Shown one piece after another: positions 20,818 through 51,404 of a DNA stretch of 58,391 nucleotides. Under the pieces are notes generated by a model that worked only from the letters and a program-made list of their open reading frames with translations, was not told the origin of the DNA and did not search any database. A program made the translations under genes and the position numbers. Origin of the DNA: an uncultured Muribaculaceae bacterium (GTDB taxonomy: Bacteria; Bacillota_I; Bacilli_A; RF39; UBA660); contig CAZEMQ010000001.1 in the NCBI GenBank assembly GCA_964513435.1, positions 71,883 to 130,273 on the forward strand. Reading direction: 5' to 3'. The first letter of the stretch is position 1, and every line of letters starts with the position of its first letter.

Positions 20818-22635
20818 TTACTAAATTTTTCTACCACTTTTCCAAGAAGAACGTTCTTGTAGAATCTAATCTTGTGTGTCTAACTGAAATATTTCAGATC
20901 CTTTCATTTTTTCTCCCGATGTTGCTGCTACATAGCTTTCCTATATTGGAACCCATAATGTACCAGAATAATAATCTTCATTAGGATTACTAAATTTGGA
21001 ATCTTCTGAAATTTGTCTCAAATTATCTACAAGAGTTCCGTCTTTAATTTCTTTTAATAACGGATTCTTATTAAACCAACCTAATCCTAACAGTTTATTA
21101 TTAACAGCAACATTAACTACTCCAAAACGTCTCCATTCGTTAGTTAAATCTCCGTTAGAATTATAAGGAGCTGTTAAATTATATTTTTGATATATTTTAT
21201 TAATATTTTCGTAATTCTATTTTATTTGTTCCGGACTATTTAAATTAATTCCAAGTTGTCGTATTTCCTTTTCAGCATCCTATTTAGCTTTAGCTTTAGT
21301 AGGAGAAGTATCTGGAACGATAGATCCGTCTCTATTATAGGCATCTAAATCTATCGGATAATCTACTGAATTTATTCTTCCGTCTAATAAAATAACACCA
21401 TTGAATCCAGCAGGATTAATTCCAACTCCACCAACTGTAACATTATTTAAATCTAAAATAGAAGAATATGTACCTCTTGTAACATCTTGAAAAGTACTAT
21501 TTGCTCCCAATGGATTATCATCTTTGTCAGTAAGTGGTAATGTATTTACAATTACTTGATAAGCATGATTAGTTCCAGAATTTATTACAAAATTACTTCG
21601 TACACCAGCTCCAGCTAAAAATTTTGCAGGAGTTCCATATATTTTAGAATCTAATACGCCACTACTACCATCGCCAGAAGAACTAGACGAACTTTTAGGA
21701 ATTTGAGCTTGTACGGATTTAGAATATTTTAAATTACCAGCTAAATATTGTCCGACTAATTTTGTAGTAGCTTGTTCTTTATTTGGATCATTTAATTTTA
21801 TAGATGCCCATGTTTTAATTCTATCAGGAAGAGCTGTAGTTAAATAATTAATCAAACTTTTAATTTGTTCAGAATTAGTTTCTTCACTTACTTTATAAGT
21901 CCCGTTATTTAAAGATTCTAAAAATTCAGATTTTTGTTCATCTGTCATTCCTTCTACAATTTGTAATCCTTCTAACGCTTCTTTATTAGAAACTGAAGTT
22001 TCAGAATATTTAGTACTTCCTAAAGTTACTTTAGCCTATTCAATTAAATTTTGAAATTCTTCATATCCAGTACTATTATTTATAATATCTAATATAGATT
22101 GATTGAAAGATAAAGAAGGATCATATTTTCTTAAATTGGCTAAATTAGACACACTTAACAATTGATAATCATTAGGATTATCGTAATACTAATCTAAACT
22201 TACATAAGTTAAGTCTCCTTTATTATTTTGTGCAATCAATCTGCCATCTAATGAAATTGCTGGTTCAGCTAATGAACCATTTGCAGTAGCTCTTTTAATC
22301 GCTTCCTAATATTCTTTATAATTCTGATTAGCCACTCTTATTTGATATAAATTTTCAAGATAAGTAGTAGCTAAATCTCCAGTATCCAGACCTGTTAATT
22401 TAGTCATCTGAAAAGTGGCAGTTAATTTAGACACAATTTCATTCATATCATTTGGTAGTCCATCTATATCTTTAATCATATTAAAAAAATCTTTCTATGT
22501 TAATTCTCCAGTATCACTTTTTGAACTAGATGAAGATTGTCCAGTGGTAGTTGGATTTTCCCATTGTATAGGAACATACGTTGTAAAGAAAGATTCAAAA
22601 CTACCACCTGTCTAATATTTAGGTGTGATTTTCAT
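20818..22635 (-). CDS. virion protein (605 aa), function unknown
   Basis: ATG 22635 to TAA 20820-20818, which is immediately preceded by an in-frame TAG. 1818 nt, in frame with track ORF 21280..21948. Several internal TAG codons, no TAA/TGA. Confidence 0.75.
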
Positions 22636-22674
22636 CTTTGATTATTTTATTTATTAAATTCATAACATTAGGTT

Positions 22675-25449
22675 TCAAAATACCCCTCTCTTAGAATTAA
22701 GAATCTAATTATAAGATTTGACAACACCACTGTAAGGATTTGTATAATACCTTCCAGATGCTATATTATATAAATCGTACTAATATCGTCTTTTCAATTC
22801 ATTTACTTTGTCAATATAATTCTAATCCTATAACATTGAAGATGTAGTTGCATCTGGATTTTGTTCTTTATACTGTCTATTAAGTGTTTGAATTGCATCC
22901 GAATACAAATTTTGTGCATACTAAGAAGATGTATTTTGTTTTAATGCTTTATTTTCAGCAAATCTTGTTCTAAGCCTAGTCTCAACCCCTTGTAAGTAAT
23001 TATCAACAGAACCCCAATTAGATTTAAGTCTCTATGCTTCTATTTGTGCTTTTTGCCAGTTAGATTCATTTATAGCCGCTCTATTTTTATTAGCAACATC
23101 AGTTCTCCTAGCAACATTATCTTCCTGCCTTTTAAGAGCTTCTTCTTTAGTTCTTTTAATTTCTTTATCATCTGCTAAGAATCCTTGATATTCAAGATCT
23201 CTTGCTTGTCTATTAGCATCAAGATTTCCTGCTAACTATAAGGATGCATCTGAAGTAAATGGTCTAGCAGCTTGCCTTCTTAAATCAGCAGCCTGTCTAT
23301 TTCTAAACTACATTTCACTAAATGCTCCAGTAACAGGAGAATACAACTCATAAGTATTTAATAAAGTAGGTTTAGTGGCTTCTGTTAATGTTTTTGCTAC
23401 CTTATTATTTGTTCTTAAAGATAAAGCCATCCTTCCTACTCCTAATAAATCTGGATATAAATCAGATAACCACCCACTTGAAGTAAACGAAGGATTATTT
23501 TCAGAAGTTTCAGTCAATGAAGGATTTACGTATGTATTGTTTGTAACATCTTCTACAGGAGTTTCTATAGGAGATTCTATAGGAGATTCTGTATCAAATG
23601 CTCTATATCCTTCAATTGATGTATCATTAGTTGGAATCCACTATCCTCGTCCAGATTTATCACCCTCGGCTTTATAATAATAAGCACCAGTTGCACCTTT
23701 ACTTTTCCAATATTCTCCCCAATTTCCAAAATTAGTTAACGCTGAGTCAGTTAAAGATGCTACTCTACTATAAGTTTGTAATCCTAAAGCGTTATCAATA
23801 TAAGCTGTATTTACATCCTAATTCCACCTATCTCCAGTACCCATTGGATTAGTAGGTCTTGTAAAACTAGCATACTAATAAGCCACTCCATTTTGTCTAT
23901 TGTTATAATCATCATTAGAATTACCAAATAACGTATAATTAAAAGTATTTCCTGCATTCTAATAGCCTGTATTAAACGCACGTACTTTATCACTACCTAA
24001 ATACGTTTTAGAATTCTGGTAATCATTAATTCCAGCTGAATATCTAGTGTTAACGTTATTTTTCACAAAATCGGCGTATCTGTTTAAATCTCCGTTAAAC
24101 ATAGAATTCATTTGAGCAATTACTTTGGGATCTAAAAAGAACCTATTAAGATAAGTATTATATCCAATATCTGGATTACTACCTCCAGCATATATATTAC
24201 TAAAAGAAATTCCGCTTTGTGCTTTTAATACTCCTCCTAATTTATGTTGAGAAATAGTAAAAAACTAGTCATACCAATCATTATCTTTATTCATCCATTC
24301 TTCAACCATCTACTTCTAAAAGAACGGAATACTATCCCTGGATGCTTTTCTCATTGTATTGTTATTGCTATCCCATAAATAAACTGCTCCTTTATTTTCA
24401 CTATCTGTAAGCTAAGGAATATAATATAACCCTTGATTATTAGAATCAATTAAAGTTAACTCTCCTCTGTTTCTTAATGTATTTAGTATAGAACTTATTA
24501 TCATTCTGTTAGAATAATTACTAGAAGACTAATCTCCATTTATTAATGTATTTAGTACTTTAGTTAATTCCTTAGAATCATATTGACTTGCTTTCTTAAC
24601 AAAAGAATTTCCAGCTTCACCATAATCTTCATTATCAACTAAAGAATGCCAAGAACTGTCTCCCGTAAAAGTTGGGTAAAGTTCTTGATACCATTTTACA
24701 AAATCGTCAATATTATACTACGGAGTTTGTGTCTATTGTTGTCCACTGTTATCAGAAGATTGCATTCTTCCAGTATAAAATACTTTTTCCCAAGGTACGT
24801 CACTGTAAGCTCTACTTAAAGCATAGTAGTCTCCAGCATCAATAGTATTATCTACAATAGATTGATATGCAGCTTGTAAAATACGTTTTTGATTTTCGTC
24901 AGTAGTATTATCAATATCTTCCTAAATTAAAGGAAGTAATATTGCCGCTCTTCTTGTTATTCCACGAGTTCCAGTCTCTTCATCAAATAAATCATTATCA
25001 GCAAAATAATAATAATTTGGATTAGTATCTGTATTAAATATTCTTTGTAATAATGATTGACTAGGTGTAGTTTTTTTACTCGATGTACTATTTTCTGAAG
25101 TATATTCTTTAGATTTTCCTAACTATCTTCTTAAAAATGAAGCTGCTGCTCCATAATAATCATCTTTATCAGAAGTCTATCTATTGCCTTCAACATCATA
25201 ATATATATTATTTTCATATCTTCCTCTAGAATCAACAAATCTGCCATTTTGATAACTTATAGAGTTGTCTCCATAACCAGATAATAAATTGTAAATAGCA
25301 TCTCTAGTTCTCTATCTATTTTCATCACCTTTAATGGAAGATAAATAAGAATCTATATTATTTTCTACAGCTCTCTATAAGTCTGTGTATAAGTATTGTT
25401 TACCTAAGTAATTATATAATTGTGGATTTTCTTCCTATAATGTAGCCAT
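22675..25449 (-). CDS. virion protein (924 aa), function unknown
   Basis: ATG 25449 to TGA 22677-22675 = 2775 nt. I translated the whole gene by hand: many in-frame TAG, no TAA/TGA. In frame with track ORF 23308..23517. C-terminal half is coiled-coil-like (..EALKRQEDNVARRTDVANKNRAAINE..). Confidence 0.75.
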
Positions 25450-25460
25450 ATTAGTTTATA

Positions 25461-25496
25461 ATAAAAAGGGAACATATAATTTGTTTATATGCTCCC
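25461..25496 (-). terminator. rho-independent terminator
   Basis: Minus strand: GGGAGCATATAA-acaaa-TTATATGTTCCC followed by TTTTTAT. It lies 16 nt downstream of the TAA of gene 25512..25823 and just upstream of ATG 25449. Confidence 0.6.
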
Positions 25497-25511
25497 ATCT
25501 AAGTTAATAAA

Positions 25512-25823
25512 TTACTTCTTAATTTTCCGAACTAACGTTCCACCTTTACGATATACAGGTTCTTCCTGTGGCTCTTGTGGTGTCCCACCTTGCATTTGTT
25601 GTACAATTTCAAGAAACATCTATGCACCCTGTGCTAAGAGTTGACAATCCTGGTTCTACAAACCTTGCGCAAACATCTGAGCGAGCATCATAATAGGATC
25701 TTGTTGTCCTCCTTGTTCTGGAGATTCTACAGGAGCGTTGTTTACTGCAGGATCTTCAACCGGCATTGTCCCACCTGTTTGGAATTTACGTGTTTTTTTG
25801 TTTTCTTTTGGTGTAATTTTCAT
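25512..25823 (-). CDS. small Q/P-rich protein (103 aa)
   Basis: ATG 25823 to TAA 25514-25512 = 312 nt, with two in-frame TAG. Visibly more GC-rich than its surroundings. MKITPKENKKTRKFQTGGTMPVEDPAVNNAPVESPEQGGQQ... Confidence 0.6.
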
Positions 25824-25900
25824 AATTTTTAATGTTTAAATTTAAACTTGTGATAATTACAAAATTATATAATTATTTAATCTATTCCAAATATAGAATA

Positions 25901-26494
25901 TCAATCTTTATTAGAACTATCTGACGATTTAACGTATTCTGCTGGACGATTATCTTGTCCGTTTAAAACCTTAAAAATATATCTCCCTAATGATTTATAA
26001 TCAGATTCTTTTTTTGACAAATCTGCTTTTTTAGCTTTTTTGATTAAAATTCTAGTTTCTCGTCTTGAAATAATTCGTTCTCCACCCCACAGTTGCATTT
26101 GAGTAGATCCGTCCTATGCTAATACTTTCATTACAGGAGAACTATCTTTAATGTCATCTTCAAATTCTAATTCATCTCCAGTTTTTATTCCAGAATTAGC
26201 ATTAACTTCTAATACATAAACTGTGTCTGGGACTGTAACTAATCCTTTATCGTTAGGTTCTCTTGTTATTACATAAGTTACTTCTTGATCATCATTCATA
26301 AATATCTAATCAAGAGGTATCTATGTATCTTTCATTGTCATAGAAGAGTTTTCAGATTCATCAAAACAAAACAACATTCCTTCATTTTCTGGAAGTTTAG
26401 ATATTCCTTGTAAGCCTTTCCTCTTTTCTTCATCAGTTTTAGCTACTTGAATCTTATATTCTTTATCTCCTATTTTAATTGTTGCTGTTTCCAT
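25901..26494 (-). CDS. DUF192-like protein (197 aa)
   Basis: ATG 26494 to TGA 25903-25901. Merges track ORFs 26114..26299 and 25901..26098 through TAG codons. The motif order typical of DUF192/COG1430 is present: ..KRKGLQGISKLPENEGMLFCFDE....MTMKDT-TAG-IPLD-TAG-IFMNDDQEV....TVYVLEVNANSG.. Confidence 0.65.
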
Positions 26495-27305
26495 TTTGTT
26501 TTGTTGCTATTATTTCATTAGACTCTTTTATCAGCTAATCCCACACTTGTTGATTAAAGTTATCATAATCTTTTTTAGATGGTTTTGTCTCTTCAGGATT
26601 AACTGTGTAATGTTTACCAACAGCATTAGCTACTTTTTTTGCAACTTTTCCTAAATTCTATTCAATTCTAGATCTAGCTCTTGTTACAGGTAAACTTGGA
26701 TCATAATTATCTCCTTGTGTCATTGCACCTAAAACATTTCCGCCAATATCAGTAATAAAAGGAATAGCCCAAGAATAAGCATATGCCTTTCCAGCACGTC
26801 TTACCCATTTTCCTTTATTTATGGGTGTTTTAGGTTTTTTATCTTTACCTTTACTCTAATTATCTTGATTAGAGTTATTTGTCGTAGTTTGTGTATTATC
26901 TGTAGTAGTATTTTCAGTTGCCGTTTGTGTATTGTTAGTTGTATTTGAATTAGATTTTGTGTCACTAACTGCGGCAGCCATTGTGACTATACGTTGTAAA
27001 TTTTTTAAAAATGTAGGAATTTTTGTTATCTTACCAATAGGTAAGATTCCAGATATATCTGGTGCTATCAATCCGGGATTTTCATTAGCATTGGCTGTAA
27101 GTTTATAATACAAGCCTTTAACATAATCGGATAATTCATCTGCATTATTTAAATAATAATCACCTAATTCTCTACGTCTTTTATTCTCAGCTTTATTTGC
27201 TTCAGCTTCAGCTACTCTTCTTTGAAACCATTCAGGAGCTTCTATTATATTTGTATCTAAACCAGTTTGTGCTTTAATTGGAATTGGTTGCTTATATTGT
27301 ATCAT
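26475..27305 (-). CDS. virion protein (276 aa) with an N/T-rich low-complexity linker
   Basis: ATG 27305 overlaps the upstream TGA (ATGA). TAA at 26477-26475, overlapping the next gene by 20 nt. 831 nt, three in-frame TAG. Confidence 0.65.
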
Positions 27306-29668
27306 AATAACTCCTATGTATTATCAACAGTATTATTTAATAATTCATTTGTTAACATCTATCCAGCTTCTAAAGCTGCTTTTTCTTTTTCCTTCTAAGA
27401 ACTACTTTCATTATAATATATTTTATATAAACGTTCAAGCTCTTTAGTTACTTCTAAACGTAATATTACTTCAGATCTCTCTATTTCAGCTTGTTGTTCT
27501 CCGTTATTATCAACTACAGGAATACCTTTCTTAGTTATTCCATCCACATCCATGTGATGTTTTCTAGCATGAAGAGCACCTTCTGGAATTACGTTAATAG
27601 AACCTCCTTCTTGGAATTTTTTAGATTTAAAAAAGCCACTCCATCCTTTTTTATATCCATATAGATTTCCATTTTCATCTTCATCAGATATTGTAAAAAG
27701 TTCAGCTTCCTCAGGAGTCATTATAAGAAAATCATTTTTATCAATAGCTCTTCTATAAGCATCTTTACCATAATGCTTTAAATTACCATCGTCATCTTCC
27801 ATGATTTCTGCATATACAATAGCATTTCCATTATCATCAGTACTCCAAGTCATATAATGAGTTCCACGAGCTTTATTTCCTTCGTTATCAATAAACTCAA
27901 TATCTCTTACTGGTTCAGACATCCTTTGAATAAATCTTGGATTTTCCTTTTTGGCGTATTCTATAAGTTCTTCTAATGTTCTAGATTTTTTATTTGTTTT
28001 TCCACCTTTTTGAAAAAATTCTATATTAGTTTCTTCTATAGGAATTATTTCAGTAAATTTATTTATATTACCTCCGTTTTTAAACTACTATGTATTATTG
28101 AATAAATTAATAGGAGTTATTTTTGTAACTTCATATGAAGTTTGTTTTTTAGGAGATTTTAAAATCTATTTAACTTGCTACATCAATTCTAATGACATTC
28201 CTGACTTTCCAACCCTAACATTAGCCTACGAATAACCTCCTTGTAATGCAAATGCTCTTCTATTTTCATTAATAGCAGCTGTAGACTGTTGTATATTAAA
28301 TCTATTGGTAGCTGTATCTGCAATATCAGACATTACATTTTGTTGTCTTTTCGCCTCTGTTATTTCACTATTTGCTTTTTGTCTAGCTTTATTACTGAGT
28401 AATCCATATTTTTTACCACTCTTAGTAAGAGCATCATCCACAGTTGACGAAGTTCCACTATAAGATGAGCCTACTGTTTCAAATGCTTGTTCATTCTTAG
28501 TAATAGTCTCTGCTTTTTTACCTCCAAACCCATTTATCATTCCCATAGGAGTCATCTACATGAAAGAACTACCTAAGATAGCGTCGGCAGTTGTATTATG
28601 TGTAATAATGCCATTAGCTAGATAAGTGTGATCATTATCTGCTTGTAAATTATAGACAGTCTATACTCCTATTGGAATTATAGATTTTATCGGGACTTGT
28701 TCTAATTCTTTAGTAATATTACTAATTGTTCCAACAATTAAATTTGAATGTAAATTATTGGCTTGAACAAATTTCCAACCTTGAGAAGTTAATATGTATA
28801 TAGGATGATCAAAACTACAATCTAAAACAATCCCATTCTATAATTCAATTCTAACACATTCTTTCTATCTTGGTTCTATTATATGACTAACTATCTAAGG
28901 TCTTATTTCCTTAGTGTTTTCATTCCACCCAATTATACCATCTTCTGGCTTTAAGTCTTCTATATTAATAATATCACCGTTTGCTGTAAATACTTTAGTT
29001 CCAGCACATACGCACATCCCATCAGTACCTCCTCCTAATTTATTAACAACATTACCTACTAATTTATTAGCTTTCATAGCTAAAGATGCAATTGTTCCCC
29101 ATCCAGGAACCACAGCTATTGCGTCTGAAATTGCGTCATAGGCTGTATCTAATCCTTTTGTTATTGCTCCTTTATCTCCAGAATATTCACTCTTTCCTCC
29201 AGCTGCTGCCGTAAATGCATCGTTAGCTGTATTCAATGCAGCACCCCAAGTACCAGAATTTTTTCCAAAAGTAGAATTATTGAATTTATCTGAAAATGAT
29301 ACCTTTCCCTCAGGAAGAGATTTAGAAAAAGACTATAAATCTTCATTTAGAGAATCAATACTGACAGTAGGAGTTACTGATGTTGGTTCAATTGTAGCAG
29401 AAGTAAGTTGATCCCACTAGCTACCATAAGTTCTATTCATTAATTCTGTAGATGATTTAGTTTGATTCTATATCGGAGTTGCAAAATTTTTAAATTCTTG
29501 TGCATAATTAGGAACTGCTCTGGTAGCAAGATCAGAAGTATCCTAATACAAAGCAAGATTATAATTAGGCTACTACGCCGCAGAATAACCATAAATTGTT
29601 GCTGCAGGAGAACTAGTTAAACTAAGAAAAGATCCACTTTGATGTTTTGGTATTAATCTTTTAAGCAT
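27302..29668 (-). CDS. virion (tail/cargo-like) protein precursor containing a mini-intein (788 aa; 648 aa after protein splicing)
   Basis: ATG 29668 to TGA 27304-27302 = 2367 nt. Track ORFs 28895.., 28226.. and 27395.. are all in frame. Hand scans of 27901-28228 and 28595-29014 found only TAG as in-frame stops, including two TAG-TAG doublets. Confidence 0.8.
28595..29014 (-). mobile_element. mini-intein (Hint domain, 140 aa, no endonuclease domain)
   Basis: N-terminal block A CVCAGTKVFTANGDIINIEDL begins at Cys codon 29014-29012. Block B LDCSFDHPIYIL (TxxH-type). C-terminal blocks F/G VYNLQADNDHTYLANGIITHN are followed by the +1 Thr (28594-28592). Exactly 420 nt, in frame. Contains four in-frame TAG. 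Confidence 0.85.
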
Positions 29669-32600
29669 AACTTATTGAATATAAAGTTTTAATAGCATAT
29701 ATAATTGCTAATTTGTTACCTGTATATCTTATTCTAATCTTTATCCATTTATCTTTGACTTTAACTTCTTTTATTTGTGATTCTTGCCAATTCCAAGTAA
29801 CATATCCTCTGCCATCGTCAGTTTCAAAACTTTCTGGAACTTCTATATTATTTGTAAGAACTTCATCTGGTATTGGACTCTATCCAAGTTCTACTGGTAT
29901 TTTAGTAGTTGAATTACCATCTAAATTAGTCCATTCAGATTCATTCTTGTAGACTACGTTTATAGGATTAATCTAAACATACCACTAATCTTCTTTATAT
30001 TGCATGTTTCCTCTAAGTCTACCTTTATTTCTAACATCAACAGCTTTAGAATGATTCCATATACGATACTCATCTAGATTTTCATATCTGACTATCTCAC
30101 CACCAGCTAACGCAGAAAAGTCTTTAGTAGATATATTATCTTTTAAATGATAGTAATCCTCTATTTCGTTTATAGTGTCCTGTCTAGAATAATATAAAGG
30201 CATTAATGTAGATTTATCATAGTAGCCATCTATTGAATTTCCATTAGAATCCACTAAAGGTCTATGAACAGATTCTAATTCAGTATAATCAGAATCATAA
30301 GTAATATCACATCCATTATATTGATATAGTTCTTTAGTGGCTTCCTATCTTATATACATATTTTTCTTATCCTTAGCAAAATCATAACAATCTCCAATTA
30401 TTTCATAATGAAAAGATTCAGGTTCTGCATTATTACTAATTATTTGTAGATTATCAAATATTTTATGTACATTCTAATCTGCAACTACTACAAATTCAAA
30501 TTCAAATGGATGTTGTTTTCCATACCAATATGTTGGATATATATCGTCTGCAATGTCGATAATTCCTGCTTGTCCGTGTTTCCAAAAATCTGTAGTTAGG
30601 AACTACATATTATATTCTGGAATTATCGCTACAACAGATTCATAATATCCAGCATCTACATAAGTTCTATTTGTAAATCCTGTAACATAGGCTTCTCCTA
30701 AATCTACATCCTCCACTCCTGTGTAAGCCACAGATATGTTAGCTCTAATATTTAGAAGTAATACCACTTTGTCAGGATTCTTCTAATTTTCCTAAGTTAA
30801 CCACTACCTCCTACCTCTATCATCTTTTACAATATTTCCATCTTCATCTCTTTCATAAAATTCAGATGTAATATCATCATAATTACCTGTAAAAGTAAGT
30901 GTATCTCCGTTAATATTAAAGTTTTTATAGTTACCATAATTATCTCTAACTAATTCATAACTTATCTCTACTACTACATTATCTCCTGTGGGGAGGGTTC
31001 TATTACTTAAATGTAAAGTAGTAGAAAAGTTATTTCCAGATATTATATTATTTTCTAAGGTTACTCCATCAGAAAAATCATTATCATAATGACTTACTCC
31101 TAATTTAGCAATCCATTTAGATGTGTTTCTATCAAAACTAAAATACTAATTATATATATTTTCAGAATAACTTGGAACCCAACTATAAAAAGTTATCCAT
31201 TGCTACTAAAGTTCGTTGTAACATAAATTCCATACTCTTTCTTCAAATCCATATAGATTATCATAAAACGTAAACATTACATCACGTTTAAACTTATTAT
31301 AGTGAGATTTTACATTACGAACTCCGATTATAGGTTCTAATTCACGTTCTGTTAGTGATATATTATTATTAAGAAACTCTTGAACTTTAAAATCTGATAT
31401 ACATTCAAACTCAGATCCATTAGTTCTCCATATTTTCTTAGCAACTGTATCAACACCGTATACAGCATTAGGTGTTTTTATAACAGATTCTCTCCATTGA
31501 CTACCGTATGTATCAGATAATACATTTGGATTTTCTGGCAATACATTAGAAGTATTAATATAAACGTTTCCACCACTACCTTCTCCTGCAATAGCTCTTT
31601 CATTAACTGGAATTATCGCTACTCCATGTTCAAAAACACATAATAAATTTCCTCTAAATTCTATTATTTTAGTAATTGAACCATAAGTTTTAGGATAATC
31701 TCTATAATGTGTTCCTTCAAAGGTTCTAAATCCATTTTGAAAAGCGTCTTGAACCTAAATGTTAGAATATGCTATTCTATTACTAAATTCATTCTTAATC
31801 CAAGGAACGTCAGCTACTTCAAAGTTAACTCTTTCAGAGAGAGATTTCTCATACCCTTTATTTATACATAATGCTTCTGGAATTTTATAGGTTCCTTTAG
31901 TCATCATAGAATAAAATGGATAGAACCCTCTAGCATGTCCAAACAAAGATACTTCGTCTGCGTTGGAATCGTCAATATTACGAATATTCAAATTGTGTGT
32001 AGATCTTACTACTAATGTGATATACATTCCTAATCTTACAGCATTAACATCACCTAAGTTAATTTCATCAAAACTATCGGTTTGAACAACCTCATCTTCT
32101 ACTTCGTAATGATCTTTCCAACAATCTGGATCAACTATATCATCATTAGTTGGAGAAGTAGGATCTTGGAAATTTCTATTTATTCTGTGTGTAAATTGAC
32201 ATATATAACAATCCCCTCTATAAACAGGGGTATTTAAATCATTCCATTCACTATCAATAGTATTTAACCACCAAGTAGTATTACTTAAATCATATCTATC
32301 TGAAACAGCATAAAATCCCGATTTATCATTATACCTAATCTGAAAGTAATTATCAAGTTGTGATACAGTATATCCTGGAATTTTTATATCAATAAGTTCT
32401 CCAGAGGCATCGTATCCTGTTATGCCTATATATGGCCCATAACTACCTCTAAGTAAATTGGTAGCTTCTTCTGTAAGATTTTCTTTTCCTATATATTCAT
32501 ACCTAAATGCTTCTTCAGCTTCACCGGCTCTTGCTGAGAACATATTATCTCCAATCGCAACTAACTTAGTATTATCCTCTACACCAATAACTTTAACAGA

Positions 32601-34535
32601 AGTGTAACCTTCAGCTTTATCAAAACTAAAAGATTCTGGATAAAAATGATAACTACTTCTTGTAAGATAGTTAGTAGTGCCACAATTCCTAACAACAAGT
32701 TCCGTAGATGCGAATAGCGTATTTAAATAAGATGAATTAATATCATATTCAGGACATATTGCGGCCATAGGACTCACTTGTTGATTTTCTAATTCGTATA
32801 TTCTTCTTTCAAAATCATGATCAAGCTCTCTACTATCATCGTCATCTTCATCCTAAGTTAAGAAACTTTCAGTAATATAAGTCATTTCACCTTCGTCATT
32901 TATTAACGGCAATACTGGTGTATTACTTTCTTTATCAATTCCAATTGTATATGCTTGACAAAGAGTAGTTGGAATTCTTTTCTGTCTTACAAAAAAGAAC
33001 CCTTTTATTCCTAATGTATTCTATAAATAATCAAGAGTTTCTTGTTTTACATAAAACTAAATACCTATTACTGTGCTAAAATCAGAACAGTTAATCTATA
33101 TAACACCTTTAGCATTTTCATAATTTACAACAGTATTATAAGAAACATCATCGGAACTAGAATCATCTACAATTCTATAATACTATTCGTCATAATTTAC
33201 ATATACTCTATTTTCATCCTCATCAAATAGCTCTACTTGCGTATAATCATTTTGTGTAATATCTGTAGTAAGAACTCCCCCTCTAACATTAAATACATCA
33301 GTTAATGTATTATCAGATAATATAAACACTACTCCAAATCTATACATCTCATCATCCCAGTAACCTACTTTATTATAGATATAAGAAGTATCATAATAAG
33401 TATTAGATGTAGAGCCAGTATAATCCACACCTAACTGGTCAACATTATATTGTTCTGTTGTATCAATTATAGGAAAAAATCTTAAAGCACAATCTGCTAA
33501 ATCTTCATAAGGAATTTTAAGTTTATCAACATTAGCTAAAAATAACATATTCTGTGCTACATCTTGTGTTTCAGCAGAACCATATACTTGAAACATAAGA
33601 TTTATTTCGTCTACTGATATTTCAGTAGTATCTTCATATCCAGATATTGTTAAGGTTGTTCCTCCACTTTCAGCTAATATATATTTCTAATTTATTTTAT
33701 ATGCAGAGACAGTTGCATTTTCATCTAAATCAGATGTAGATTTAGTATAATATATTACTATTTTAGTATATCCGGGGTCAGTATTGGATATTACAAAACG
33801 TACCTATTTATAACAGTTTTCGTCTCTAAAACCACCTCTAACAGAGTCTGCATTATTTCCTATAAATAAAGAAACCAATCCAGATTCCGCTATAAAATCT
33901 GATTCATTTCCATCTTCGTCTACATATTTAAAATAGAAGTGATAATTACCAACACTTAAATTACCTCCATATAATATTCCGCCAAATTTAAGTCTCGGAA
34001 TGGTTGTTGTTTTCTTATATAATGATGTATCTATATCAAACTAATCTCCTTGATCATATATGTTAGAATCATTATTTCCTTTTCTATTACATACTTGATA
34101 TTTATTTCTCTCTGTAGCACTAAATCTAGAATTAATAAGCCTAGGAGGATTTAAGCCATCATTTATTATCAAATTAACGGAGTTATCATATGACCACTAA
34201 GGAGTTAGATTAACTGGATTATTAAGACTAAAACTTAATTCATCAGTTTCAAAATCTACAAGCTGTCCTTTTTGATATACTATAGGTTGAGTTTCTGTTG
34301 CAGGTATTAAATCAGACCACGAATTTGAACTTGAAGCATAAGATTCAAATTGTGCTTCAGTTATTCCGATTTCATCACAGAATTCAGATATTTCCAATAA
34401 TTTATTCTTATAATAAATCATTGTGTGATCCAACCTATAGTTATAAAAAGGATTATATTCATAAACTAAATTTCCTTCAGTTGGAGTAGTTTTTACTGCT
34501 ACTCCAAAGGAAAATGTTTGGTTTAATTGCTACAT
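29661..34535 (-). CDS. large tail-associated structural protein (1,624 aa)
   Basis: ATG 34535 (second codon is TAG) to TAA 29663-29661 = 4875 nt. Track ORFs 34197.., 33183.., 31755.., 31206.. and 29985.. are all in frame. The tail role is inferred only from size and position in a crAss-like structural module. Confidence 0.75.
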
Positions 34536-37879: not shown

Positions 37880-38910
37880 AAAAATTCATATTCATTAGTA
37901 AGAGTCTATATATCACTAAATTTAAGAGCATTTCTAATTAAAATTAGTTCTGCTTTATCTGTTACTAAATTCTAAACAAAAAATTTACTTTTAATTCTAG
38001 ATATATATGGAATTCTAAAAATATATTTTTTACCATGTTCACATATACGACATTCATCGAATATCTAATAAACCATTACAGGTCCAAATTCAAAATATTT
38101 TCTACGTCTACCTTTCTTCTTTATCTGTGATAAGTATTTATCATATTGATTATCAGTTAATGCAAAATAATAATAACCATCCCATTCTAATTTCTTTCTT
38201 CTATATAATACTCTTAACTTTATAGCTAATTTTCTTACATAATACCGAAAGTGAACTAACGGATCTGATCTCAAATTACCAATATAACTCCAAAATTTGT
38301 TGTCTCTTATAAGAGTATCTCCACCATAACTATTATGTAAATATAAAGACCTCCATCCAAATTTTAAAATTCGTTTTATATCTTGCTTAGATATACTAGG
38401 AAATAATGAATACATCTATTCATAATAATCATTTATTTTTTTATCGTATTTACTATCTCCATATTGCATTCCGTTGTTTATATTATTAACTAATTCGTTA
38501 ATATGTTTCTTATCTATATATACAGTTTTTGTTCTAGGAGTTCCTTTTCTATACATATAGAAAGTTATACACGCTCCTGTAAAATTTGATTTAAAAATAT
38601 CTAGATCTTTAAGTAATCCTAACTACCTTTTGATTTTAAGTTCATCTCCAGAAAATCTTCGTACATTCATTTTACATCTTGGTACTCCATTTAACGGAAG
38701 CCAAAAAGTTACATTATTAGTAATTATATCATCAATTACGATTTTATAACATTCCTTAAATATCCTTTCTGTTAGTCTATGCCTATGTTCATCATTAAAA
38801 AGTTCTTTACACTATTTACAAGTTGTTTTAAGTTTCTTGAGAGGAAAATTATCAAATAAATTTCCAAGTGAAAACGCACATCCAAGAGCATATCTATGTG
38901 TATCACTCAT
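37876..38910 (-). CDS. hypothetical basic protein (344 aa)
   Basis: ATG 38910 to TGA 37878-37876 = 1035 nt. In frame with track ORF 38065..38415. I translated it by hand; the only internal stops are TAG. Confidence 0.7.
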
Positions 38911-39598
38911 ATAACTTCAAAGATCTATTATGACTCTTTCTATTCCAACTTGTCTTAGCATCCAATACCTGATCCCAAGTATTTTGAGACATATAAGTAT
39001 CGGTTCTAGCCTAATCAGCACGTATTAACCACTATTGTCTTAGTGTTTCTGCCAAATTTATTATATTAGCATTATTAGTCATCATTCCTTCTCTGAATTT
39101 AATTACATAAGCACAGTAAGTAGCCAATGCCATAGCTTCTTTATCAGTTATTTCTGGAAGTCCATCATCATCGAGTATATATCCTTTGTAAAGAATATTT
39201 ATTCTTCCATGAGGTTTATCAAAATATAATTTATTTCCTACCTATTCATATTTTATAAACTTACCAGAAGCGTATAAAGGATGTCTAAATGCTTTTCTAT
39301 GCTCAATATACGATTCTATAAATGCTGAACGTATATCTCCATTAGGAGTATCATTAGTACTCCAAGCCCATTCCTCAAAATCTGTAGTTACAGCTTCAAT
39401 CTAATCTACATTACAAGGAAGCTCTATTCCTTTTTCACAATTATCTACACAAGTACTATATCTATACAATCTAGTACGTTTATTACCTATATATTTCCAA
39501 CCTATTATTGCAATTTCTTCCCAATCGTCCTCCTACATTTCAATACCATACATAGTATTCATAAGAGTCATCGCATAATGAAAATTATTGTATTCCAT
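38903..39598 (-). CDS. hypothetical protein (231 aa)
   Basis: ATG 39598 to TGA 38905-38903 = 696 nt, with an 8-nt overlap onto the next gene. Five in-frame TAG. Translated by hand. Confidence 0.7.
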
Positions 39599-39614: not shown

Positions 39615-40307
39615 TTATCCAGGCATATATTCCTGAGTGTTAGGATAATTAGAAGGAGATAATTGTCTATAATATCTAACTAGTTTTTCTGTTAATCTCC
39701 TTTTTACTTCATTATCAATAAATGTAAGATTGTAGTCTTTATTTTCCATGCAACATTCATATTGTTCCAACTATCTAACATCTTTAAAAATAGCTGTAAT
39801 AGAAATACTATTTAATAACGGAGCATTAAAAACAAAACAATCATACATTCCATTTTCATTAGGAGTTGTATCTATCCAAACATAAGGTTTATTTTTACCT
39901 CTTTTTCTATATTTTCTATATCTAAATGCTGTTGAAGATGTATAAACTACGAAAGGTAACTATCTATCTGTTGAACCTACATAATCAACTGAAAGATTTC
40001 CAAAATCGTTGAACAACTATGGAATTTCAAAATGAGCTATAGGTGGTTCTGAACAAATATCACTAAAGTTACACATACATCGTTCTATATTTTTACAGTC
40101 TATTGGAATACAGTTTATAGATATGTATAAATCTTTTAAAGGTAAAATTCCTTTTAAAGAATATTCTTTTAAAACTTGAAGTCTCTCTAATACTACAGAA
40201 TCTTCAAGCTATTCCATAGACATACTAAGATTAGTATGATAACCTCTTAATCCAGAAACAACATCGTTTCTAATAGCAGATGCTAGTTTTTCTATTTGAT
40301 TAGCCAT
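39615..40307 (-). CDS. hypothetical Cys-rich protein (230 aa)
   Basis: ATG 40307 to TAA 39617-39615 = 693 nt. Four in-frame TAG. Translated by hand. Confidence 0.7.
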
Positions 40308-41963: not shown

Positions 41964-43112
41964 TTATTCAGTAACTTTTAAACCATCCGAAGATACAGTC
42001 AATGATGTTCCATCAAGTTTAACAGATACTTCATTATCTGTAATATTGATACCATCACCAGCAGTTAGATTATCTTGTTTTTCAGTTTGTAATTGCTCAA
42101 CAGTTGTACTCAAAGTATTAACCGTGCTATTCAAATTATTAACTGCATTGGTCAAAGATTCAATATCATGTGCAACAGAATCAAGACCTGGACTTCCATA
42201 ACCATCTACTGTATTAATAGTACCTATAGTAGCTAATGCAGCTTCAAACTCATCAGAAACAGTCTGGTTAACATAGAATACATGAGTAGTTCTAGATTTT
42301 ACTAAATCGCCTACAGCATTGTCTCCAAGAATACCTCTATTAACACAATAATGAATAGTATATTGATTATACTTAGCACCTATAATCGGAGCTTCATCTT
42401 GGTTAAGAGCAAGCCAACGAGTACGTTCGTAGGTAGGCAAACGTAAATTATGCAACAAGAACGGATAAGTACCAAAGCCTTCTTTTCCTACAAAATATGC
42501 TTCCGAGGTAGCAGTTACAGCATCATTAGAATCAACTTCTGTGATATCTTCTAACGATCTAACTACGTTATATTCACCCATACCATAATAAGCATCTCTA
42601 TCAAGTTTTTCAATATTTAAAATTTTAAACCTTTGATACTCATCGGTAGCTTCTATCGTGATATAAGTACCACTATTAGAAACATTCAACAATTTCCTAT
42701 TATAGACCATAATTTCGTACTTATTGATGGTCTTAATTAATTTTTCAGCAGTTGTAGCTGCATCTGTATCCCAAATAAAATCAACTGATAAAGGTTTACC
42801 TTTCCATTGAAGATCATTAGCATACAAAGAGCTTTGAGATGCTTGAGAGATACCAAGATAAATGTGTAATCTAAATATATCTCCGTCTGTTCCGCTCAAC
42901 TGTGACAAATCAATAGTCACTTTAGCAAATTCAGCATCATGTGCTTCTGCTTTATAAATAACATGAACGTTATTGGCAAGGAACTTGTTTACTCTTTTAA
43001 CATAAAAACTAGCAGGGTTAGTTCCATCTGCTGCCTGTGCTGACCACAACGGTTTACCTGTTGTGAAATCTCTGTTTGAATTAATTACGGTTGTTGTTGT
43101 AAATTGAAACAT
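41964..43112 (-). CDS. abundant-type virion structural protein (382 aa), auxiliary-capsid or head-fibre-like, TAG-free
   Basis: Intact track ORF with ATG and TAA. C-terminal coiled coil (..LTNAVNNLNSTVNTLSTTVEQLQTEKQ..) followed by short fibre-like repeats (GDGINITDNEVSVKLDGTSLTVSSDGLKV). Followed by a strong terminator. The role is inferred. Confidence 0.8.
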   Translation of the reverse strand: MFQFTTTTVINSNRDFTTGKPLWSAQAADGTNPASFYVKRVNKFLANNVHVIYKAEAHDAEFAKVTIDLSQLSGTDGDIFRLHIYLGISQASQSSLYANDLQWKGKPLSVDFIWDTDAATTAEKLIKTINKYEIMVYNRKLLNVSNSGTYITIEATDEYQRFKILNIEKLDRDAYYGMGEYNVVRSLEDITEVDSNDAVTATSEAYFVGKEGFGTYPFLLHNLRLPTYERTRWLALNQDEAPIIGAKYNQYTIHYCVNRGILGDNAVGDLVKSRTTHVFYVNQTVSDEFEAALATIGTINTVDGYGSPGLDSVAHDIESLTNAVNNLNSTVNTLSTTVEQLQTEKQDNLTAGDGINITDNEVSVKLDGTSLTVSSDGLKVTE

Positions 43113-46786: not shown

Positions 46787-47946
46787 CAATTATGTTATTC
46801 TGAAACTTTAATAGTTTCAATTCTTATACTTTCGTATAAGTTCAGACTATATCATTATCTTATAATGGTTTAATGTTAGAAGTGTTACCATAAAAATATC
46901 TCCATCTATATCCTCCACATCTTTTTTGTGTTCCTTTAATTGCAGCTATGATATTTGCACTAGATTTAATTCCATTTGCATCAGCTGCTTCTTTAATTGA
47001 AGAATAAGATTCTAAAAAGATTCCTTTGTCATTATATTTAGCAACAGGAGATAAATGATTATTGTTTTTAGGAACAAATTTATTTTTATATGACCAAAAA
47101 TAACCGTATGCTTGATTAGATTTATTATTACATACATTCCAAATAGATGTTTTTGCTGAAATGCTATTTTCAAATTGTTTAGATGCTTCTACTATTGATT
47201 TCCAACATTTGATTAAATTACCTTGTAAATCGAACTAATACACCGATTTCTCTTTTTTCTCAACTGGAGATATATCACTCATATCGTCATTAAAATACTT
47301 CCATTGATAATTTCCGCAGTATTTAGAATTTCCAGATAAGTTTTGTTTTATTGAATTTAAATTTAATGCCTATGATGCTTCTTTAATTGAATCCCACACT
47401 CTTATAAACTTACCTTCTAAAGTGTACTGCGCTATTTTTCTAGAATGCTCATATTGAGATATAATTCCTCCAACTGAAAGATTATAAGTATCTGTTCTTT
47501 TAACAAAATCAATATTTACTATTTCAGCTTCTTTCGCATAAGCTAATTTTTTTCCTTCTTCTGTATCTGGAAATATATATAAAGTTTCTCTTTTAAAATT
47601 TTCATAACCATATTTCTATACAGCTTTCGGAAATCCTTTTATTTTCTTTTTTCTATCTTTTTTTGTAACACCACATCCAATATATCCATCAAATATATCT
47701 GGGTTAGTCCTATGCACCCCTACATAGATTTTACCATTAATTAAATTAGTAGTTTTATAAACTATATATTTCATAAGATATTAAACGTTTAGTCGTTGAA
47801 CATTCTTCCCTTTCGGAAGCCTTTGCTGCTGATTGTCTAATTCTCTAATTTTTAAACATTTATGTTTAGAATTACTTCTTACATTGTAGTTTAGAGACTC
47901 TAAAGATTTCCCAGCAATTTGAATAATTTATTTTTACAGCTTTTTC
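46787..47946 (-). mobile_element. group I intron I carrying a GIY-YIG ORF
   Basis: Core: aaattgctgggaaatc, agacaatcagcagc, gttcaacgactaa. The ORF follows, then gatatagtctgaac (46845-46857), P9 hairpins and ataacataattG. The 5' splice site is placed by codon phase at GCAGCTT| (47947); ATAGCTT| (47956) is also possible. The P1 candidate AAGCUGU gives U-A rather than U.G. Confidence 0.6.
46860..47774 (-). CDS. GIY-YIG homing endonuclease (304 aa) with three in-frame TAG
   Basis: ATG 47774 to TAA 46862-46860 = 915 nt. MKYIVYKTTNLINGKIYVGVH..FDGYIGCG..YNLSVGG, then repeated C-terminal W.S..EA....GY.W-type DNA-binding modules. The track misses it because of the TAG codons. Confidence 0.75.
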
Positions 47947-48112
47947 AAGCTGCCCAAGCTATTTTTGTTAACTTGTTGCCGGTATCTGCCTATGCTTTAT
48001 CAGCCATATCATTCATTATCATGTTGAACAATACAAGATTAGGTTTACCAACGTAACAATATTTATTAGCAGCCGCTTCTATTTGGGGAATCGCCCCTTC
48101 GCCTATATAAAT
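47947..48112 (-). CDS. putative major capsid protein, exon 10
   Basis: Follows ..acatagagaaatattG|ATT TAT ATA GGC. Reads IYIGEGAIPQIEAAANKYCYVGKPNLVLFNMIMNDMADKA-TAG-ADTGNKLTKIAWAA plus a final T that completes a TGG codon with exon 11. The 3' boundary is uncertain by 9 nt. An alternative P1 (GCUGCU/GGCAGC) would shorten the exon to 45 nt but breaks the frame with exon 11. Confidence 0.5.
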
Positions 48113-49462: not shown

Positions 49463-49533
49463 AGGTCTTCCAGTATCAGGATCACTTATTGTGCTCTTTC
49501 CATTGACATCCACCGAGCCTTTATTGAGCAGTA
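49463..49533 (-). CDS. putative major capsid protein, exon 9
   Basis: Follows ..gattaatatattG|TA CTG CTC. 71 nt. Its first 2 nt complete the codon started by the last T of exon 8. Reads LLLNKGSVDVNGKSTISDPDTGRP. Confidence 0.55.
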
Positions 49534-49787
49534 CAATATATTAATCTTATGTTACCATAAAATTCAGACTATATCTTCATTTTATATCCTATTACCGTTT
49601 ATAAAATGCCTCCCTTTTCCACTTACCTGTGTACTCTACTTGTTTATTCACTAATATGTTTCTTATTAGTTATACTTTCGATAGTCGTTGAACTTTACAT
49701 GAAAATTTTCATGTATTAGCTGCTGATTGTCCACCTCTGGAGTTTCCAGCAATTAAAGAGGTTTATACAGAGCTACTGTTACTCAGA
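49534..49787 (-). mobile_element. group I intron G, ORF-less (254 nt)
   Basis: P1: exon ACAGGGU pairs with IGS GCUCUGU (7 bp, ending in U.G). Core: ttaattgctggaaactcc, ggacaatcagcagc, gttcaacgactatcg, gatatagtctgaa (49563-49575). Confidence 0.7.
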
Positions 49788-49968
49788 ACCCTGTGTTCAT
49801 AGCGTACATAAACGTATCAAGAAGTTCTTTCTCTTTCTTCAACATTTTATATACACCTTCATGTTTTGTATGATCTTTATCATCAGATATACTCATGAAT
49901 ACATTCTCTTGAATAGCAAACAAGCTAGACCAGCTAGCATCAGCACGGAATGTAGTCATGTAATTACG
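49788..49968 (-). CDS. putative major capsid protein, exon 8
   Basis: Follows the P9 hairpin cttatatgaaaatataag and ..tattttttG|CGT AAT TAC. 181 nt encoding RNYMTTFRADASWSSLFAIQENVFMSISDDKDHTKHEGVYKMLKKEKELLDTFMYAMNTG plus 1 nt. Corresponds to track ORF 49783..49971 without its TTG start and its TGA. Confidence 0.65.
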
Positions 49969-51362: not shown

Positions 51363-51404
51363 TGTCTCTCTACCTGAGACTAAAATTTACTATAGCCCTC
51401 TTCC
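51363..51404 (-). CDS. putative major capsid protein, exon 7
   Basis: Follows ..attagagtaaacG|GAA GAG GGC; the same taaacG ending is seen in intron 4749..5112. 42 nt encoding EEGYSKF-TAG-SQVERH. Confidence 0.5.

What the first reader, a model, noticed from the sequence alone, without database searches (positions are those of the whole stretch)
28595..29014. A 140-aa mini-intein in a virion protein that itself needs TAG read-through to be made
Within the 788-codon gene 27302..29668 there is a textbook Hint domain. It starts at Cys (CVCAGTKVFTANGDIINIEDL), has a TxxH-type block B (LDCSFDHPIYIL), and ends VYNLQADNDHTYLANGIITHN, followed by the nucleophilic +1 Thr. It has no endonuclease domain. 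The insert is exactly 420 nt and in frame, and the extein junction would read ..KLGGGTDGM|TTADAILG... The intein has four in-frame TAG codons, so both the host protein and the protein-splicing element can be produced only under the reassigned code. Inteins in phage structural or ejected proteins are uncommon; replication and nucleotide-metabolism genes are the usual hosts.
Basis: partly seen in the sequence, partly recalled or inferred. Interest (0 to 1): 0.7.

Follow-up and report, generated by a model that had tools for sequence, protein, structure and literature searches.

The report
Mini-intein in crAss-like phage cargo-block protein
A self-excising protein element (a 140-residue mini-intein) really does interrupt a late gene of a gut crAss-like phage that reads the TAG stop codon as glutamine, but inteins in these recoded phages are already published, so this is a well-documented new example and not a new kind of thing.

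Summary
Gene 27302..29668 (788 codons, 19 in-frame TAG, TGA stop) carries a 420-nt in-frame segment at 28595..29014. It encodes a canonical class-1 mini-intein: Cys1, block B S-F-D-H, block F/G VYNLQADNDHTYLANGIITHN and +1 Thr. Pfam Intein_splicing scores above its cut-off. An AlphaFold model superposes on the Ssp DnaB and Mtu RecA mini-inteins (TM 0.82-0.88).

Intein-less homologues run straight through the junction (..GTDGM|TTTDAILG..). Other homologues carry a 376-aa allelic intein with a LAGLIDADG endonuclease at this site, or independent minis of 136-139 aa. One homologue has a second intein about 25 residues upstream. Two phages 98% identical in DNA differ by exact presence or absence of the full intein. 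The mini-intein is under purifying selection (dN/dS 0.19).

The phage is crAss-like, probably zeta group, and the host gene lies directly after the muzzle-protein gene. That is the position of crAss001 gp45 (cargo protein C1), but homology to gp45 could not be shown.

Yutin et al. 2021 already reported dense inteins in these phages, including inteins containing TAG codons. Verdict: a real, well-supported new member of a known kind, of modest interest.

The parts
27302..29668 (-). Host gene: 788 codons, 19 in-frame TAG (=Gln), TGA stop. Its start overlaps the muzzle gene end by 8 nt and its stop overlaps the next gene's ATG (ATGA).
   Evidence: identical to database protein P0001
29015..29668 (-). 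N-extein (218 residues), ending ..KLGGGTDGM. Contains the hydrophobic segment AIAVVPGWGTIASLAM.
28595..29014 (-). Class-1 mini-intein, 140 residues (protein residues 219-358), HINT fold, no endonuclease domain.
29012..29014 (-). Cys1 codon (TGC), the first nucleophile. It is part of block A CVCAGTKVF, whose C-V-C start is kept in all 71 allelic inteins.
28805..28816 (-). Block B S67-F-D-H70 (C-S-x-D-H-P in all 71 alleles).
28703..28729 (-). Approximate scar (residues ~96-104, TISNITKEL) where the ~236-residue LAGLIDADG endonuclease domain of the 376-aa alleles is missing.
28595..28657 (-). Blocks F and G: VYNLQADNDHTYLANGIITHN, with penultimate His139 and terminal Asn140.
28592..28594 (-). +1 Thr codon (ACA), the second nucleophile and first residue of the C-extein.
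28895..28897 (-). In-frame TAG (intein residue 40). It aligns with Gln in all aligned alleles: TAG in L011, CAA/CAG in L013.
28865..28867 (-). In-frame TAG (intein residue 50), in the conserved EPRQKEC motif.
28838..28840 (-). In-frame TAG (intein residue 59), a variable position.
28661..28663 (-). In-frame TAG (intein residue 118), in the invariant IGxQTVYNLQAD motif; CAA/CAG Gln in L011 and L013.
27302..28594 (-). C-extein (430 residues plus stop), starting TTADAILGSSFMQMTPMGMINGFGG, the most conserved and hydrophobic motif of the family.
29661..34535 (-). Upstream neighbour: crassvirus muzzle protein (1624 aa). It fixes the genomic context.
   Evidence: PF25731, E=9.8e-36

Best explanation
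The segment is a bona fide class-1 mini-intein inserted in a late, TAG-recoded gene of a crAss-like (probably zeta-group) phage. The precursor is translated only when TAG is read as Gln.

Inferred splicing steps, from the established class-1 intein pathway:
- Cys1 undergoes an N-S acyl shift, helped by block-B His70.
- The Met218 acyl group is passed to the hydroxyl of Thr+1.
- Asn140 cyclises, helped by His139 and the block-F Asp and His, and releases the 140-residue intein.
- An O-N shift leaves ..GTDGM-TTADAILG.., the sequence seen in intein-free homologues.

The element descends from a 376-aa intein with a LAGLIDADG homing endonuclease. That intein is still mobile at this site among related phages. 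The window copy has lost the endonuclease, so it is immobile, inherited vertically, and kept only because the host protein needs splicing.

The host protein occupies the position of crAss001 cargo protein C1, directly downstream of the muzzle gene. It is probably a packaged, ejected protein. The intein sits next to its most conserved hydrophobic motif.

Shown: the anatomy, the insertion polymorphism, the purifying selection and the recoding. Inferred: the splicing itself and the cargo role.
For: - Sequence: the quoted residues, 4 TAG codons and +1 Thr are all present.
- Profiles: Pfam Intein_splicing scores 40.3 bits against a cut-off of 35.8. The PDB matches are inteins apart from one BIL domain, which is the best hit; the Spl DnaX, Mtu RecA and DnaB inteins follow.
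- Fold: the AF2 intein domain has pLDDT 70-88. Foldseek gives 1.7e-11 and TM 0.82-0.88 to the Ssp DnaB, Mtu RecA and Npu DnaB mini-inteins.
- Empty sites: seven standard-code homologues (L001-L007) read LGVGTDQM|TTTDKILD with an exact 140-residue gap. About 45 of the top 120 homologues read GTDGM|T(T/S)TDAILG.
- Alleles: 62 homologues carry a 374-376-aa intein with two LAGLIDADG motifs (PF14528) at the same site. Others carry 136, 138, 139 or 270 aa.
- Catalytic residues: all 71 alleles have C1, C-S-x-D-H-P, HN and +1 T.
- Mobility: L008 (empty) and L013 (occupied) are 98% identical over about 15 kb and differ by an exact 1128-nt indel. Of 35 extein mismatches, 14 cluster within 150 nt 3' of the site.
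- Selection: dN/dS is 0.19 for the intein and 0.18 for the C-extein, with dS about 1.
- Recoding: coding fraction is 0.93 against 0.29. TAG aligns with Gln codons. TAG makes up about half of the Gln codons in both intein and extein.
- Context: Ring_2, Ring_1, the muzzle gene and DUF192 surround the gene, with the same synteny in relatives. In crAss001, gp45 follows the muzzle gene gp44 and is cargo protein C1.
Against: - No experiment shows splicing.
- In the context of the full protein, the Pfam intein score (26.5 bits) is below the cut-off.
- The best PDB sequence hit is a bacterial intein-like domain (2lwy), not a true intein.
- Block B has Ser where most inteins have Thr.
- The cargo-protein identity rests on synteny only. 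Pfam crAss_CARG1 does not hit, hhalign probability is below 1%, and Foldseek of the intein-free model finds nothing.
- No suppressor tRNA lies in the window, so the decoding agent is unseen.
Confidence: 0.9

Rival explanations
1. The Hint domain works as a cleavage-only autoprocessing module, like bacterial intein-like (BIL) or pretoxin-HINT domains. It would cut the cargo-block protein into two fragments and not ligate them.
For: The best PDB sequence hit is the C. thermocellum BIL domain (2lwy, E=6.6e-8). PT-HINT scores 27.5 bits against a cut-off of 27.7. Some homologues carry a precomputed PF07591 annotation. Packaged phage proteins are often matured by proteolysis (general knowledge).
Against: C1, His-Asn and +1 Thr are invariant in 71 of 71 alleles. 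Intein-free homologues are contiguous exactly at the junction, in the most conserved motif of the family. Allelic copies carry a LAGLIDADG homing endonuclease, and there is a presence/absence polymorphism between 98%-identical phages. Both are hallmarks of mobile inteins, not BILs. The top Foldseek hits are true inteins.
Confidence: 0.04
2. The element is a splicing-dead relic that stays in the mature protein as an extra domain.
For: The homing endonuclease has been lost. No experimental data exist. Block B has Ser instead of Thr.
Against: Every catalytic position is intact. dN/dS is 0.19, equal to that of the extein, at dS about 1. The insert splits the family's most conserved motif. Ser at block B is shared by all 71 alleles, including the endonuclease-bearing, evidently mobile ones.
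Confidence: 0.04
3. The region is not translated as one protein. The TAG codons would be real stops, and the gene a pseudogene or a set of short ORFs.
For: There are 19 in-frame TAG codons, and no suppressor tRNA lies in the window.
Against: Window-wide coding fraction is 0.93 with TAG as sense against 0.29 with the standard code. TAG aligns with CAA/CAG Gln in relatives. There is strong protein-level conservation and purifying selection across TAG codons. TAG recoding in crAss-like late genes is published.
Confidence: 0.01

Closest known systems
Canonical class-1 mini-inteins (Ssp DnaB, Npu DnaB, Mtu RecA delta-endonuclease splicing domains)
   Same: They share the HINT fold (TM 0.82-0.88, rmsd about 2 A), a length of about 140 aa, Cys1, a block-B His, block F, His-Asn at the C-terminus, a +1 nucleophile, and insertion in a highly conserved motif of the host protein.
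   Different: Sequence identity is only 22-25%. Block B has Ser, not Thr, and residue 3 is an invariant Cys (C-V-C). The +1 residue is Thr. The host is a phage late or cargo-block protein, not a replication or repair enzyme. Four in-frame TAG codons mean it can only be made under code 15.
Inteins of crAss-like phages described by Yutin et al. 2021 (PMC7886860), e.g. Hint-Hop inteins in Delta-group TerL containing TAG codons, and up to 3 inteins per Zeta-group genome
   Same: Same virus order and same combination of intein plus TAG reassignment in one late gene. Homing-endonuclease and intron density in the window is also high.
   Different: The host gene here is the one directly downstream of the muzzle gene, not TerL. 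The main text of that paper does not name this host; its supplements could not be read. This copy is an endonuclease-free mini-intein.
Mycobacteriophage inteins (Kelley et al. 2016, PMC5050341)
   Same: They are phage-borne inteins with multiple insertion sites in one protein and a mix of full, mini and empty alleles. They include a structural host, the portal protein.
   Different: All host proteins in that survey bind nucleic acids. The host here has no recognisable enzymatic or nucleic-acid-binding domain, and its most conserved part is a hydrophobic Gly-rich motif.
crAss001 gp45, cargo protein C1 (Bayfield et al. 2023, PMC10172136; Pfam crAss_CARG1)
   Same: The gene position is the same, immediately after the muzzle gene and before the RNAP-block genes. 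The size class is similar. Both have a hydrophobic Gly-rich segment in the N-terminal third, recurrent [FY]xxGG motifs and a mostly low-confidence or disordered prediction.
   Different: No significant sequence, profile or fold similarity was found. gp45 has no intein.

Membership tests
Intein (class 1, HINT superfamily) | HINT/intein splicing-domain sequence signature | tested here: met
   PF14890 gives E=3.6e-10 and 40.3 bits against a cut-off of 35.8 on the isolated segment, and 26.5 bits within the full protein. PDB phmmer hits inteins at E of 1e-6 to 1e-8.
Intein (class 1, HINT superfamily) | HINT fold | tested here: met
   The AF2 intein domain has pLDDT 70-88. Foldseek gives E=1.7e-11 and target TM 0.82-0.88 to mini-inteins.
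Intein (class 1, HINT superfamily) | Cys/Ser at position 1; block B (T/S)xxH; penultimate His and C-terminal Asn; Cys/Ser/Thr at +1 | tested here: met
   C1, S67-F-D-H70, H139-N140 and T+1 are present and identical in 71 of 71 allelic inteins. Block B uses Ser rather than Thr.
Intein (class 1, HINT superfamily) | In-frame insertion in a conserved host protein, with intein-free homologues contiguous at the site | tested here: met
   There is an exact 140-codon gap in L001-L007, an empty site GTDGM|TTTDAILG in about 45 of the top 120 homologues, and an exact 1128-nt indel between 98%-identical phages.
Intein (class 1, HINT superfamily) | Homing endonuclease domain, or descent from an endonuclease-bearing allele | tested here: met
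   The window copy lacks it. Alleles of 376 aa at the same site carry two LAGLIDADG motifs (PF14528), and the window sequence aligns on both sides of the deletion.
Intein (class 1, HINT superfamily) | Demonstrated protein splicing (excision plus extein ligation) | not testable with these tools
   This needs expression of a TAG-to-CAA recoded construct, or virion proteomics for the junction peptide.
Bacterial intein-like (BIL) / pretoxin-HINT autoprocessing domains | Hint domain without a conserved +1 nucleophile and without a homing endonuclease; an integral part of variable proteins and not a mobile insertion | tested here: not met
   +1 Thr is invariant. Endonuclease-bearing alleles and empty sites exist. 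PT-HINT scores 27.5 bits, below its 27.7 cut-off.
Crassvirus cargo protein 1 (crAss001 gp45; Pfam crAss_CARG1 PF25725) | Match to the portal-binding CARG1 domain (gp45 residues 424-555) | tested here: not met
   gp45 hits PF25725 at 2.3e-66, whereas host-family members P0095 and P0127 give no Pfam hit even at E<=10. hhalign probability is 0.3-0.6%. The PDB profile search and Foldseek find nothing.
Crassvirus cargo protein 1 (crAss001 gp45; Pfam crAss_CARG1 PF25725) | Gene immediately downstream of the muzzle gene, upstream of the virion RNAP block | tested here: met
   Window order is Ring_2, Ring_1, two uncharacterised ORFs (344 and 1113 aa), MUZ, host gene, and so on to the 2978- and 2255-aa ORFs. 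In crAss001 the order is gp43, gp44 (MUZ), gp45. Relatives show the same synteny.
Crassvirus cargo protein 1 (crAss001 gp45; Pfam crAss_CARG1 PF25725) | Presence inside virions and ejection into the host | not testable with these tools
   This is known for gp45 only.
Crassvirales, zeta group (Yutin et al. 2021) | [quoted passage not shown] | tested here: inconclusive
   MUZ, Ring_1 and Ring_2 hit Pfam. Relatives' contigs are 170-186 kb. The window has one intein, at least one group I intron above the Rfam cut-off, and about 7 homing-endonuclease ORFs. TAG is recoded. Only 2 unannotated GenBank phage records match. No phylogenetic placement was done.

The most novel reading that the evidence does not exclude
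The intein may be more than a parasite. It may act as a conditional safety catch on a membrane-active ejected protein. Both known insertion sites (GTDGM|T and PGWG|T) fall in or beside the two most hydrophobic, most conserved segments of the host family, so the precursor would be inert until spliced. The invariant Cys1-Val-Cys3 could form a redox trap that times splicing relative to assembly in an anaerobic host.
Probability: 0.06. Interest if true: 0.65.

Novelty: new member of a known kind. Interest (0 to 1): 0.3.

Why it matters
- It is a cleanly documented intein whose whole life cycle is visible in one phage protein family. There are empty sites, endonuclease-bearing mobile alleles, a partly decayed allele, several minis, and a second ectopic site.
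- The host protein is outside the usual ATPase or nucleic-acid-enzyme repertoire.
- About half of the Gln codons in both the splicing and endonuclease domains are TAG. The element can therefore work only in genomes that read TAG as Gln, which should confine its spread to recoded phages (inference).
- For annotators of crAss-like genomes, it marks a recurrent, predictable insertion point in the gene after the muzzle gene.
- As a small, cysteine-dependent mini-intein with Thr+1, it could also be a candidate for protein-engineering tests.
- It does not change any current understanding of inteins or of crassviruses.

Tried and rejected
- PHROGs on the host protein and 10 neighbours returned nothing useful.
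- tblastn of the spliced host and of the 382-aa ORF at 41964-43112 (tried as a possible capsid protein) against 50,697 GenBank phage records found only two unannotated 'Bacteriophage sp.' records.
- Pfam and a PDB profile search on the intein-free family found no family.
- The AF2 model of the intein-free homologue P0052 had mean pLDDT 38. Foldseek against PDB and BFVD found nothing significant.
- Tests for homology to crAss001 gp45 by hhalign and BLASTP were negative. The best non-significant alignments fall repeatedly in gp45 456-517 and 113-160, which is suggestive only.
- A database search with gp45 returned only relatives of at least 96% identity, so it gave no bridge between the families.
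- No tRNA was found in the window.
- An exact look-up of the window protein's contig found no record.
- A local HMM found no second related Hint domain in the window.
- Full-text paper searches failed every time. DOI look-ups and the supplement search of Yutin 2021 also failed. I therefore could not check whether this specific intein host has been listed anywhere.
- Considered and rejected: a group I intron instead of an intein. The insert is in frame, has Hint motifs and gives no Rfam hit.
Full report
OBSERVATION

The + strand translation of 27302..29668 is full of stops, so the gene is on the minus strand. It has 788 sense codons and 19 in-frame TAG codons, and it ends in TGA. The start ATG is at 29666-29668 and overlaps the end of the upstream gene. 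The TGA stop overlaps the ATG of the next gene.

It runs from CVCAGTKVFTANG to VYNLQADNDHTYLANGIITHN, with four in-frame TAG codons, and is followed by Thr (ACA). The only corrections are the strand and block B, which reads S-F-D-H, not T-x-x-H.

GENETIC CODE

With TAG read as sense, ORFs of at least 150 codons cover 0.93 of the window. With the standard code they cover 0.29.

In an alignment of the host gene with three relatives, codons opposite a TAG are TAG 66 times, CAA/CAG Gln 39 times and Lys 21 times. Two of the four intein TAG codons are informative. Residue 118 lies in the invariant IGxQTVYN motif and residue 40 in PQ(T/I)I. Both face CAA/CAG Gln in a relative.

TAG supplies about half of all Gln codons in intein and extein alike. 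This also holds in an allele that bears an endonuclease. No tRNA gene lies in the window.

IS IT AN INTEIN?

- **Sequence profiles.** The isolated segment scores 40.3 bits on Pfam Intein_splicing (cut-off 35.8, E=3.6e-10). It falls just under the PT-HINT cut-off. A phmmer search of the PDB finds a BIL domain as best hit, then the Spl DnaX, Mtu RecA and DnaB inteins, at E from 1e-8 to 1e-5.
- **Predicted fold.** An AlphaFold2 model of the precursor, built with 26 homologues, folds residues 219-358 as an all-beta domain with pLDDT 70-88. The exteins are mostly below 50. Foldseek superposes the domain on the Ssp DnaB, Mtu RecA and Npu DnaB mini-inteins, with E as low as 1.7e-11, target TM 0.82-0.88 and rmsd about 2 A.

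THE DECISIVE TEST: IS IT AN INSERTION?

- Seven standard-code homologues read ..LGVGTDQM|TTTDKILDSKFMKLTP.. without interruption. These are GenBank MT835470 and six IMG/VR contigs of 108-183 kb. The window protein aligns on both sides with an exact 140-residue gap.
- A large-database search gave 1754 hits. Among the best 120, about 45 have the empty site GTDGM|T(T/S)TDAILGSSF.
- Another 62 carry a 374-376-aa intein at exactly this site, with two LAGLIDADG motifs (PF14528). The rest of the occupied sites hold 136, 138, 139, 140 or 270 residues.
- The window's 140-aa copy and the 139-aa copy of its closest relative, P0002, share one endonuclease deletion. The 136- and 138-aa minis have different boundaries. 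The 270-aa copy is a half-decayed endonuclease.
- One homologue, P0035, carries a second, similar intein about 25 residues upstream, at PGWG|T.
- All 71 site-a inteins keep C1, C-S-x-D-H-P, His-Asn and +1 Thr.

MOBILITY AND SELECTION

Two phage contigs are 98% identical over about 15 kb. One (L008) has the empty site and the other (L013) has the 376-aa intein. They differ by an exact 1128-nt indel. Of the 35 extein mismatches between them, 14 fall within 150 nt 3' of the site. This looks like a co-conversion tract from homing, although immunising changes to the endonuclease target would give the same pattern.

Between the window and its nearest relative, the mini-intein has dN/dS 0.19 at dS about 1. 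The C-extein has dN/dS 0.18. The endonuclease-free element is therefore old, inherited vertically and maintained as a working splicing domain.

Across the broad family, about 10 of the 150 best representatives carry the intein. That family numbers 1619 clusters at 50% identity with E<=1e-3.

CONTEXT

Pfam identifies several neighbours on the same strand:

| Window coordinates | Pfam family |
|---|---|
| 39615-40307 | CrAss_Ring_2 (22.3 bits, below the 27-bit cut-off) |
| 38903-39598 | CrAss_Ring_1 |
| 29661-34535 | crAss_MUZ, muzzle protein (E=9.8e-36) |
| 25901-26494 | DUF192 |

The host gene follows the muzzle gene directly. Downstream come ORFs of 276, 197, 103, 924, 605, 2978 and 2255 aa. 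Relatives show the same synteny.

In crAss001, the gene after the muzzle gene (gp44) is gp45. Bayfield et al. 2023 show that gp45 is cargo protein C1. It is present in both capsid and tail barrel, has a predicted N-terminal transmembrane helix, and is proposed to be ejected first and to help form the trans-envelope channel.

I could not demonstrate homology between the host family and gp45:

- Pfam crAss_CARG1 hits gp45 at 2.3e-66 but not the host family.
- hhalign gives a probability below 1%.
- A PDB profile search and Foldseek against PDB and BFVD find nothing.

Some resemblances remain. They are position, size class, a hydrophobic Gly-rich region in the N-terminal third, recurrent [FY]xxGG motifs, and a largely unstructured prediction. 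'Virion or ejected protein' is therefore an inference from synteny.

The two most hydrophobic 19-residue windows of the family flank the insertion site. The second intein site of P0035 lies inside the upstream one.

WHICH PHAGE?

Several features match the zeta group described by Yutin et al. 2021:

- Relatives' contigs of 170-186 kb.
- Almost no matches among GenBank phages.
- TAG recoding.
- A dense load of selfish elements in the window. This includes a group I intron at 80.7 bits, further intron pieces flanking GIY-YIG/NUMOD1 ORFs, about seven paralogous endonuclease ORFs, and a LAGLIDADG ORF.

No phylogeny was run.

MECHANISM

From the established class-1 pathway:

1. An N-S acyl shift at Cys1, assisted by block-B His70.
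2. Transesterification to the Thr+1 hydroxyl.
3. Cyclisation of Asn140, assisted by His139 and the block-F residues.
4. An O-N shift.

The product is ..KLGGGTDGM-TTADAILG.., which matches the empty-site homologues. The anatomy and the evolutionary behaviour are shown. The chemistry is inferred.

COMPARISON WITH WHAT IS KNOWN

The element is an ordinary class-1 mini-intein in fold and motifs.

Kelley et al. 2016 found mycobacteriophage inteins in TerL, nucleases, methylases, primase and portal proteins, all of which bind nucleic acids. A host with no such function is somewhat unusual but not unprecedented in kind.

I could not check whether this particular host gene has been listed. The supplement search and all full-text searches failed.

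RIVALS

- **Cleavage-only BIL-like processing.** This is disfavoured by the invariant +1 Thr, the empty sites and the endonuclease-bearing alleles.
- **A dead relic.** This is disfavoured by intact catalytic residues and purifying selection.
- **Non-translation.** This is disfavoured by the coding statistics and conservation.

VERDICT

This is a new member of a known kind, with interest about 0.3. The most novel reading not excluded is that the intein acts as a conditional switch on a membrane-active cargo protein. I give that about 6%.

Noticed in passing
window 46800-49850 (-): Rfam finds a group I intron at 49545-49817 (80.7 bits, above the cut-off). Sub-threshold intron pieces at 49261-49402, 48121-48231, 47785-47922 and 46823-46918 flank GIY-YIG/NUMOD1 endonuclease ORFs at 46860-47774 and 48154-49236. 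These look like endonuclease-bearing group I introns splitting a gene whose exons I did not reconstruct.
   Followed up: partly
window 50010-55294 (-) and 46860-49236 (-): Six paralogous ORFs of about 300-363 aa start MKYIVY..N..IYIGVH (GIY-YIG type). They lie at 46860-47774, 48154-49236, 50010-51101, 51450-52532, 52850-53938 and 54203-55294. Some have no TAG codons and others have 3-6, an unusually dense run of homing endonucleases.
   Followed up: partly
window 206-4328 (-): The 363-aa ORF at 2592-3683 has LAGLIDADG-like motifs (LGSLLGDSS, FWFMDDGT) and no TAG codons. It sits between ORFs 3759-4328 and 206-2353, which look like pieces of the giant RNAP-block gene. This is probably another intron or free-standing endonuclease insertion. 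Rfam found no intron there.
   Followed up: partly
window 20818-29668 (-); L015 16987-19515 (crAss001 gp45): A short motif of the form [KF]-x-x-G-G recurs. It appears at the N-termini of several cargo-block proteins (KYQTGG in the 605-aa ORF, KFQTGG in the 103-aa ORF, KHQSG in the host) and inside the host (FKNGG, FQKGG, FQEGG). crAss001 gp45 has FDTGG, FAEGG, AFGG, NEGG and FAYGG. It could be a packaging, processing or interaction motif and is unexplained.
   Followed up: no
homologue P0035 (1286 aa; not in window): This homologue carries two closely related LAGLIDADG inteins in the same protein. One is at the usual GTDGM|T site and one about 25 residues upstream at PGWG|T, inside the other hydrophobic segment. 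This looks like an ectopic transposition of the same intein lineage.
   Followed up: partly
L008 10601-10750 vs L013 7729-7880: Between an empty-site phage and an intein-bearing phage that are 98% identical, 14 of 35 extein differences cluster in the 150 nt just 3' of the insertion site and none in the 100 nt 5' of it. This resembles a one-sided co-conversion tract.
   Followed up: partly
window 41964-43112, 48154-49236, 51450-52532, 52850-53938, 2592-3683 (-): TAG codons are unevenly distributed. Several ORFs have none, including the 382-aa ORF at 41964-43112 and several endonuclease ORFs, while neighbouring late genes have dozens. This hints at genes expressed before or independently of recoding.
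   Followed up: no
window 25901-26494 (-): A DUF192 (COG1430) protein (E=2.2e-21) is conserved in the cargo block of this phage and its relatives. It has no counterpart in the crAss001 gene order at that position.
   Followed up: no
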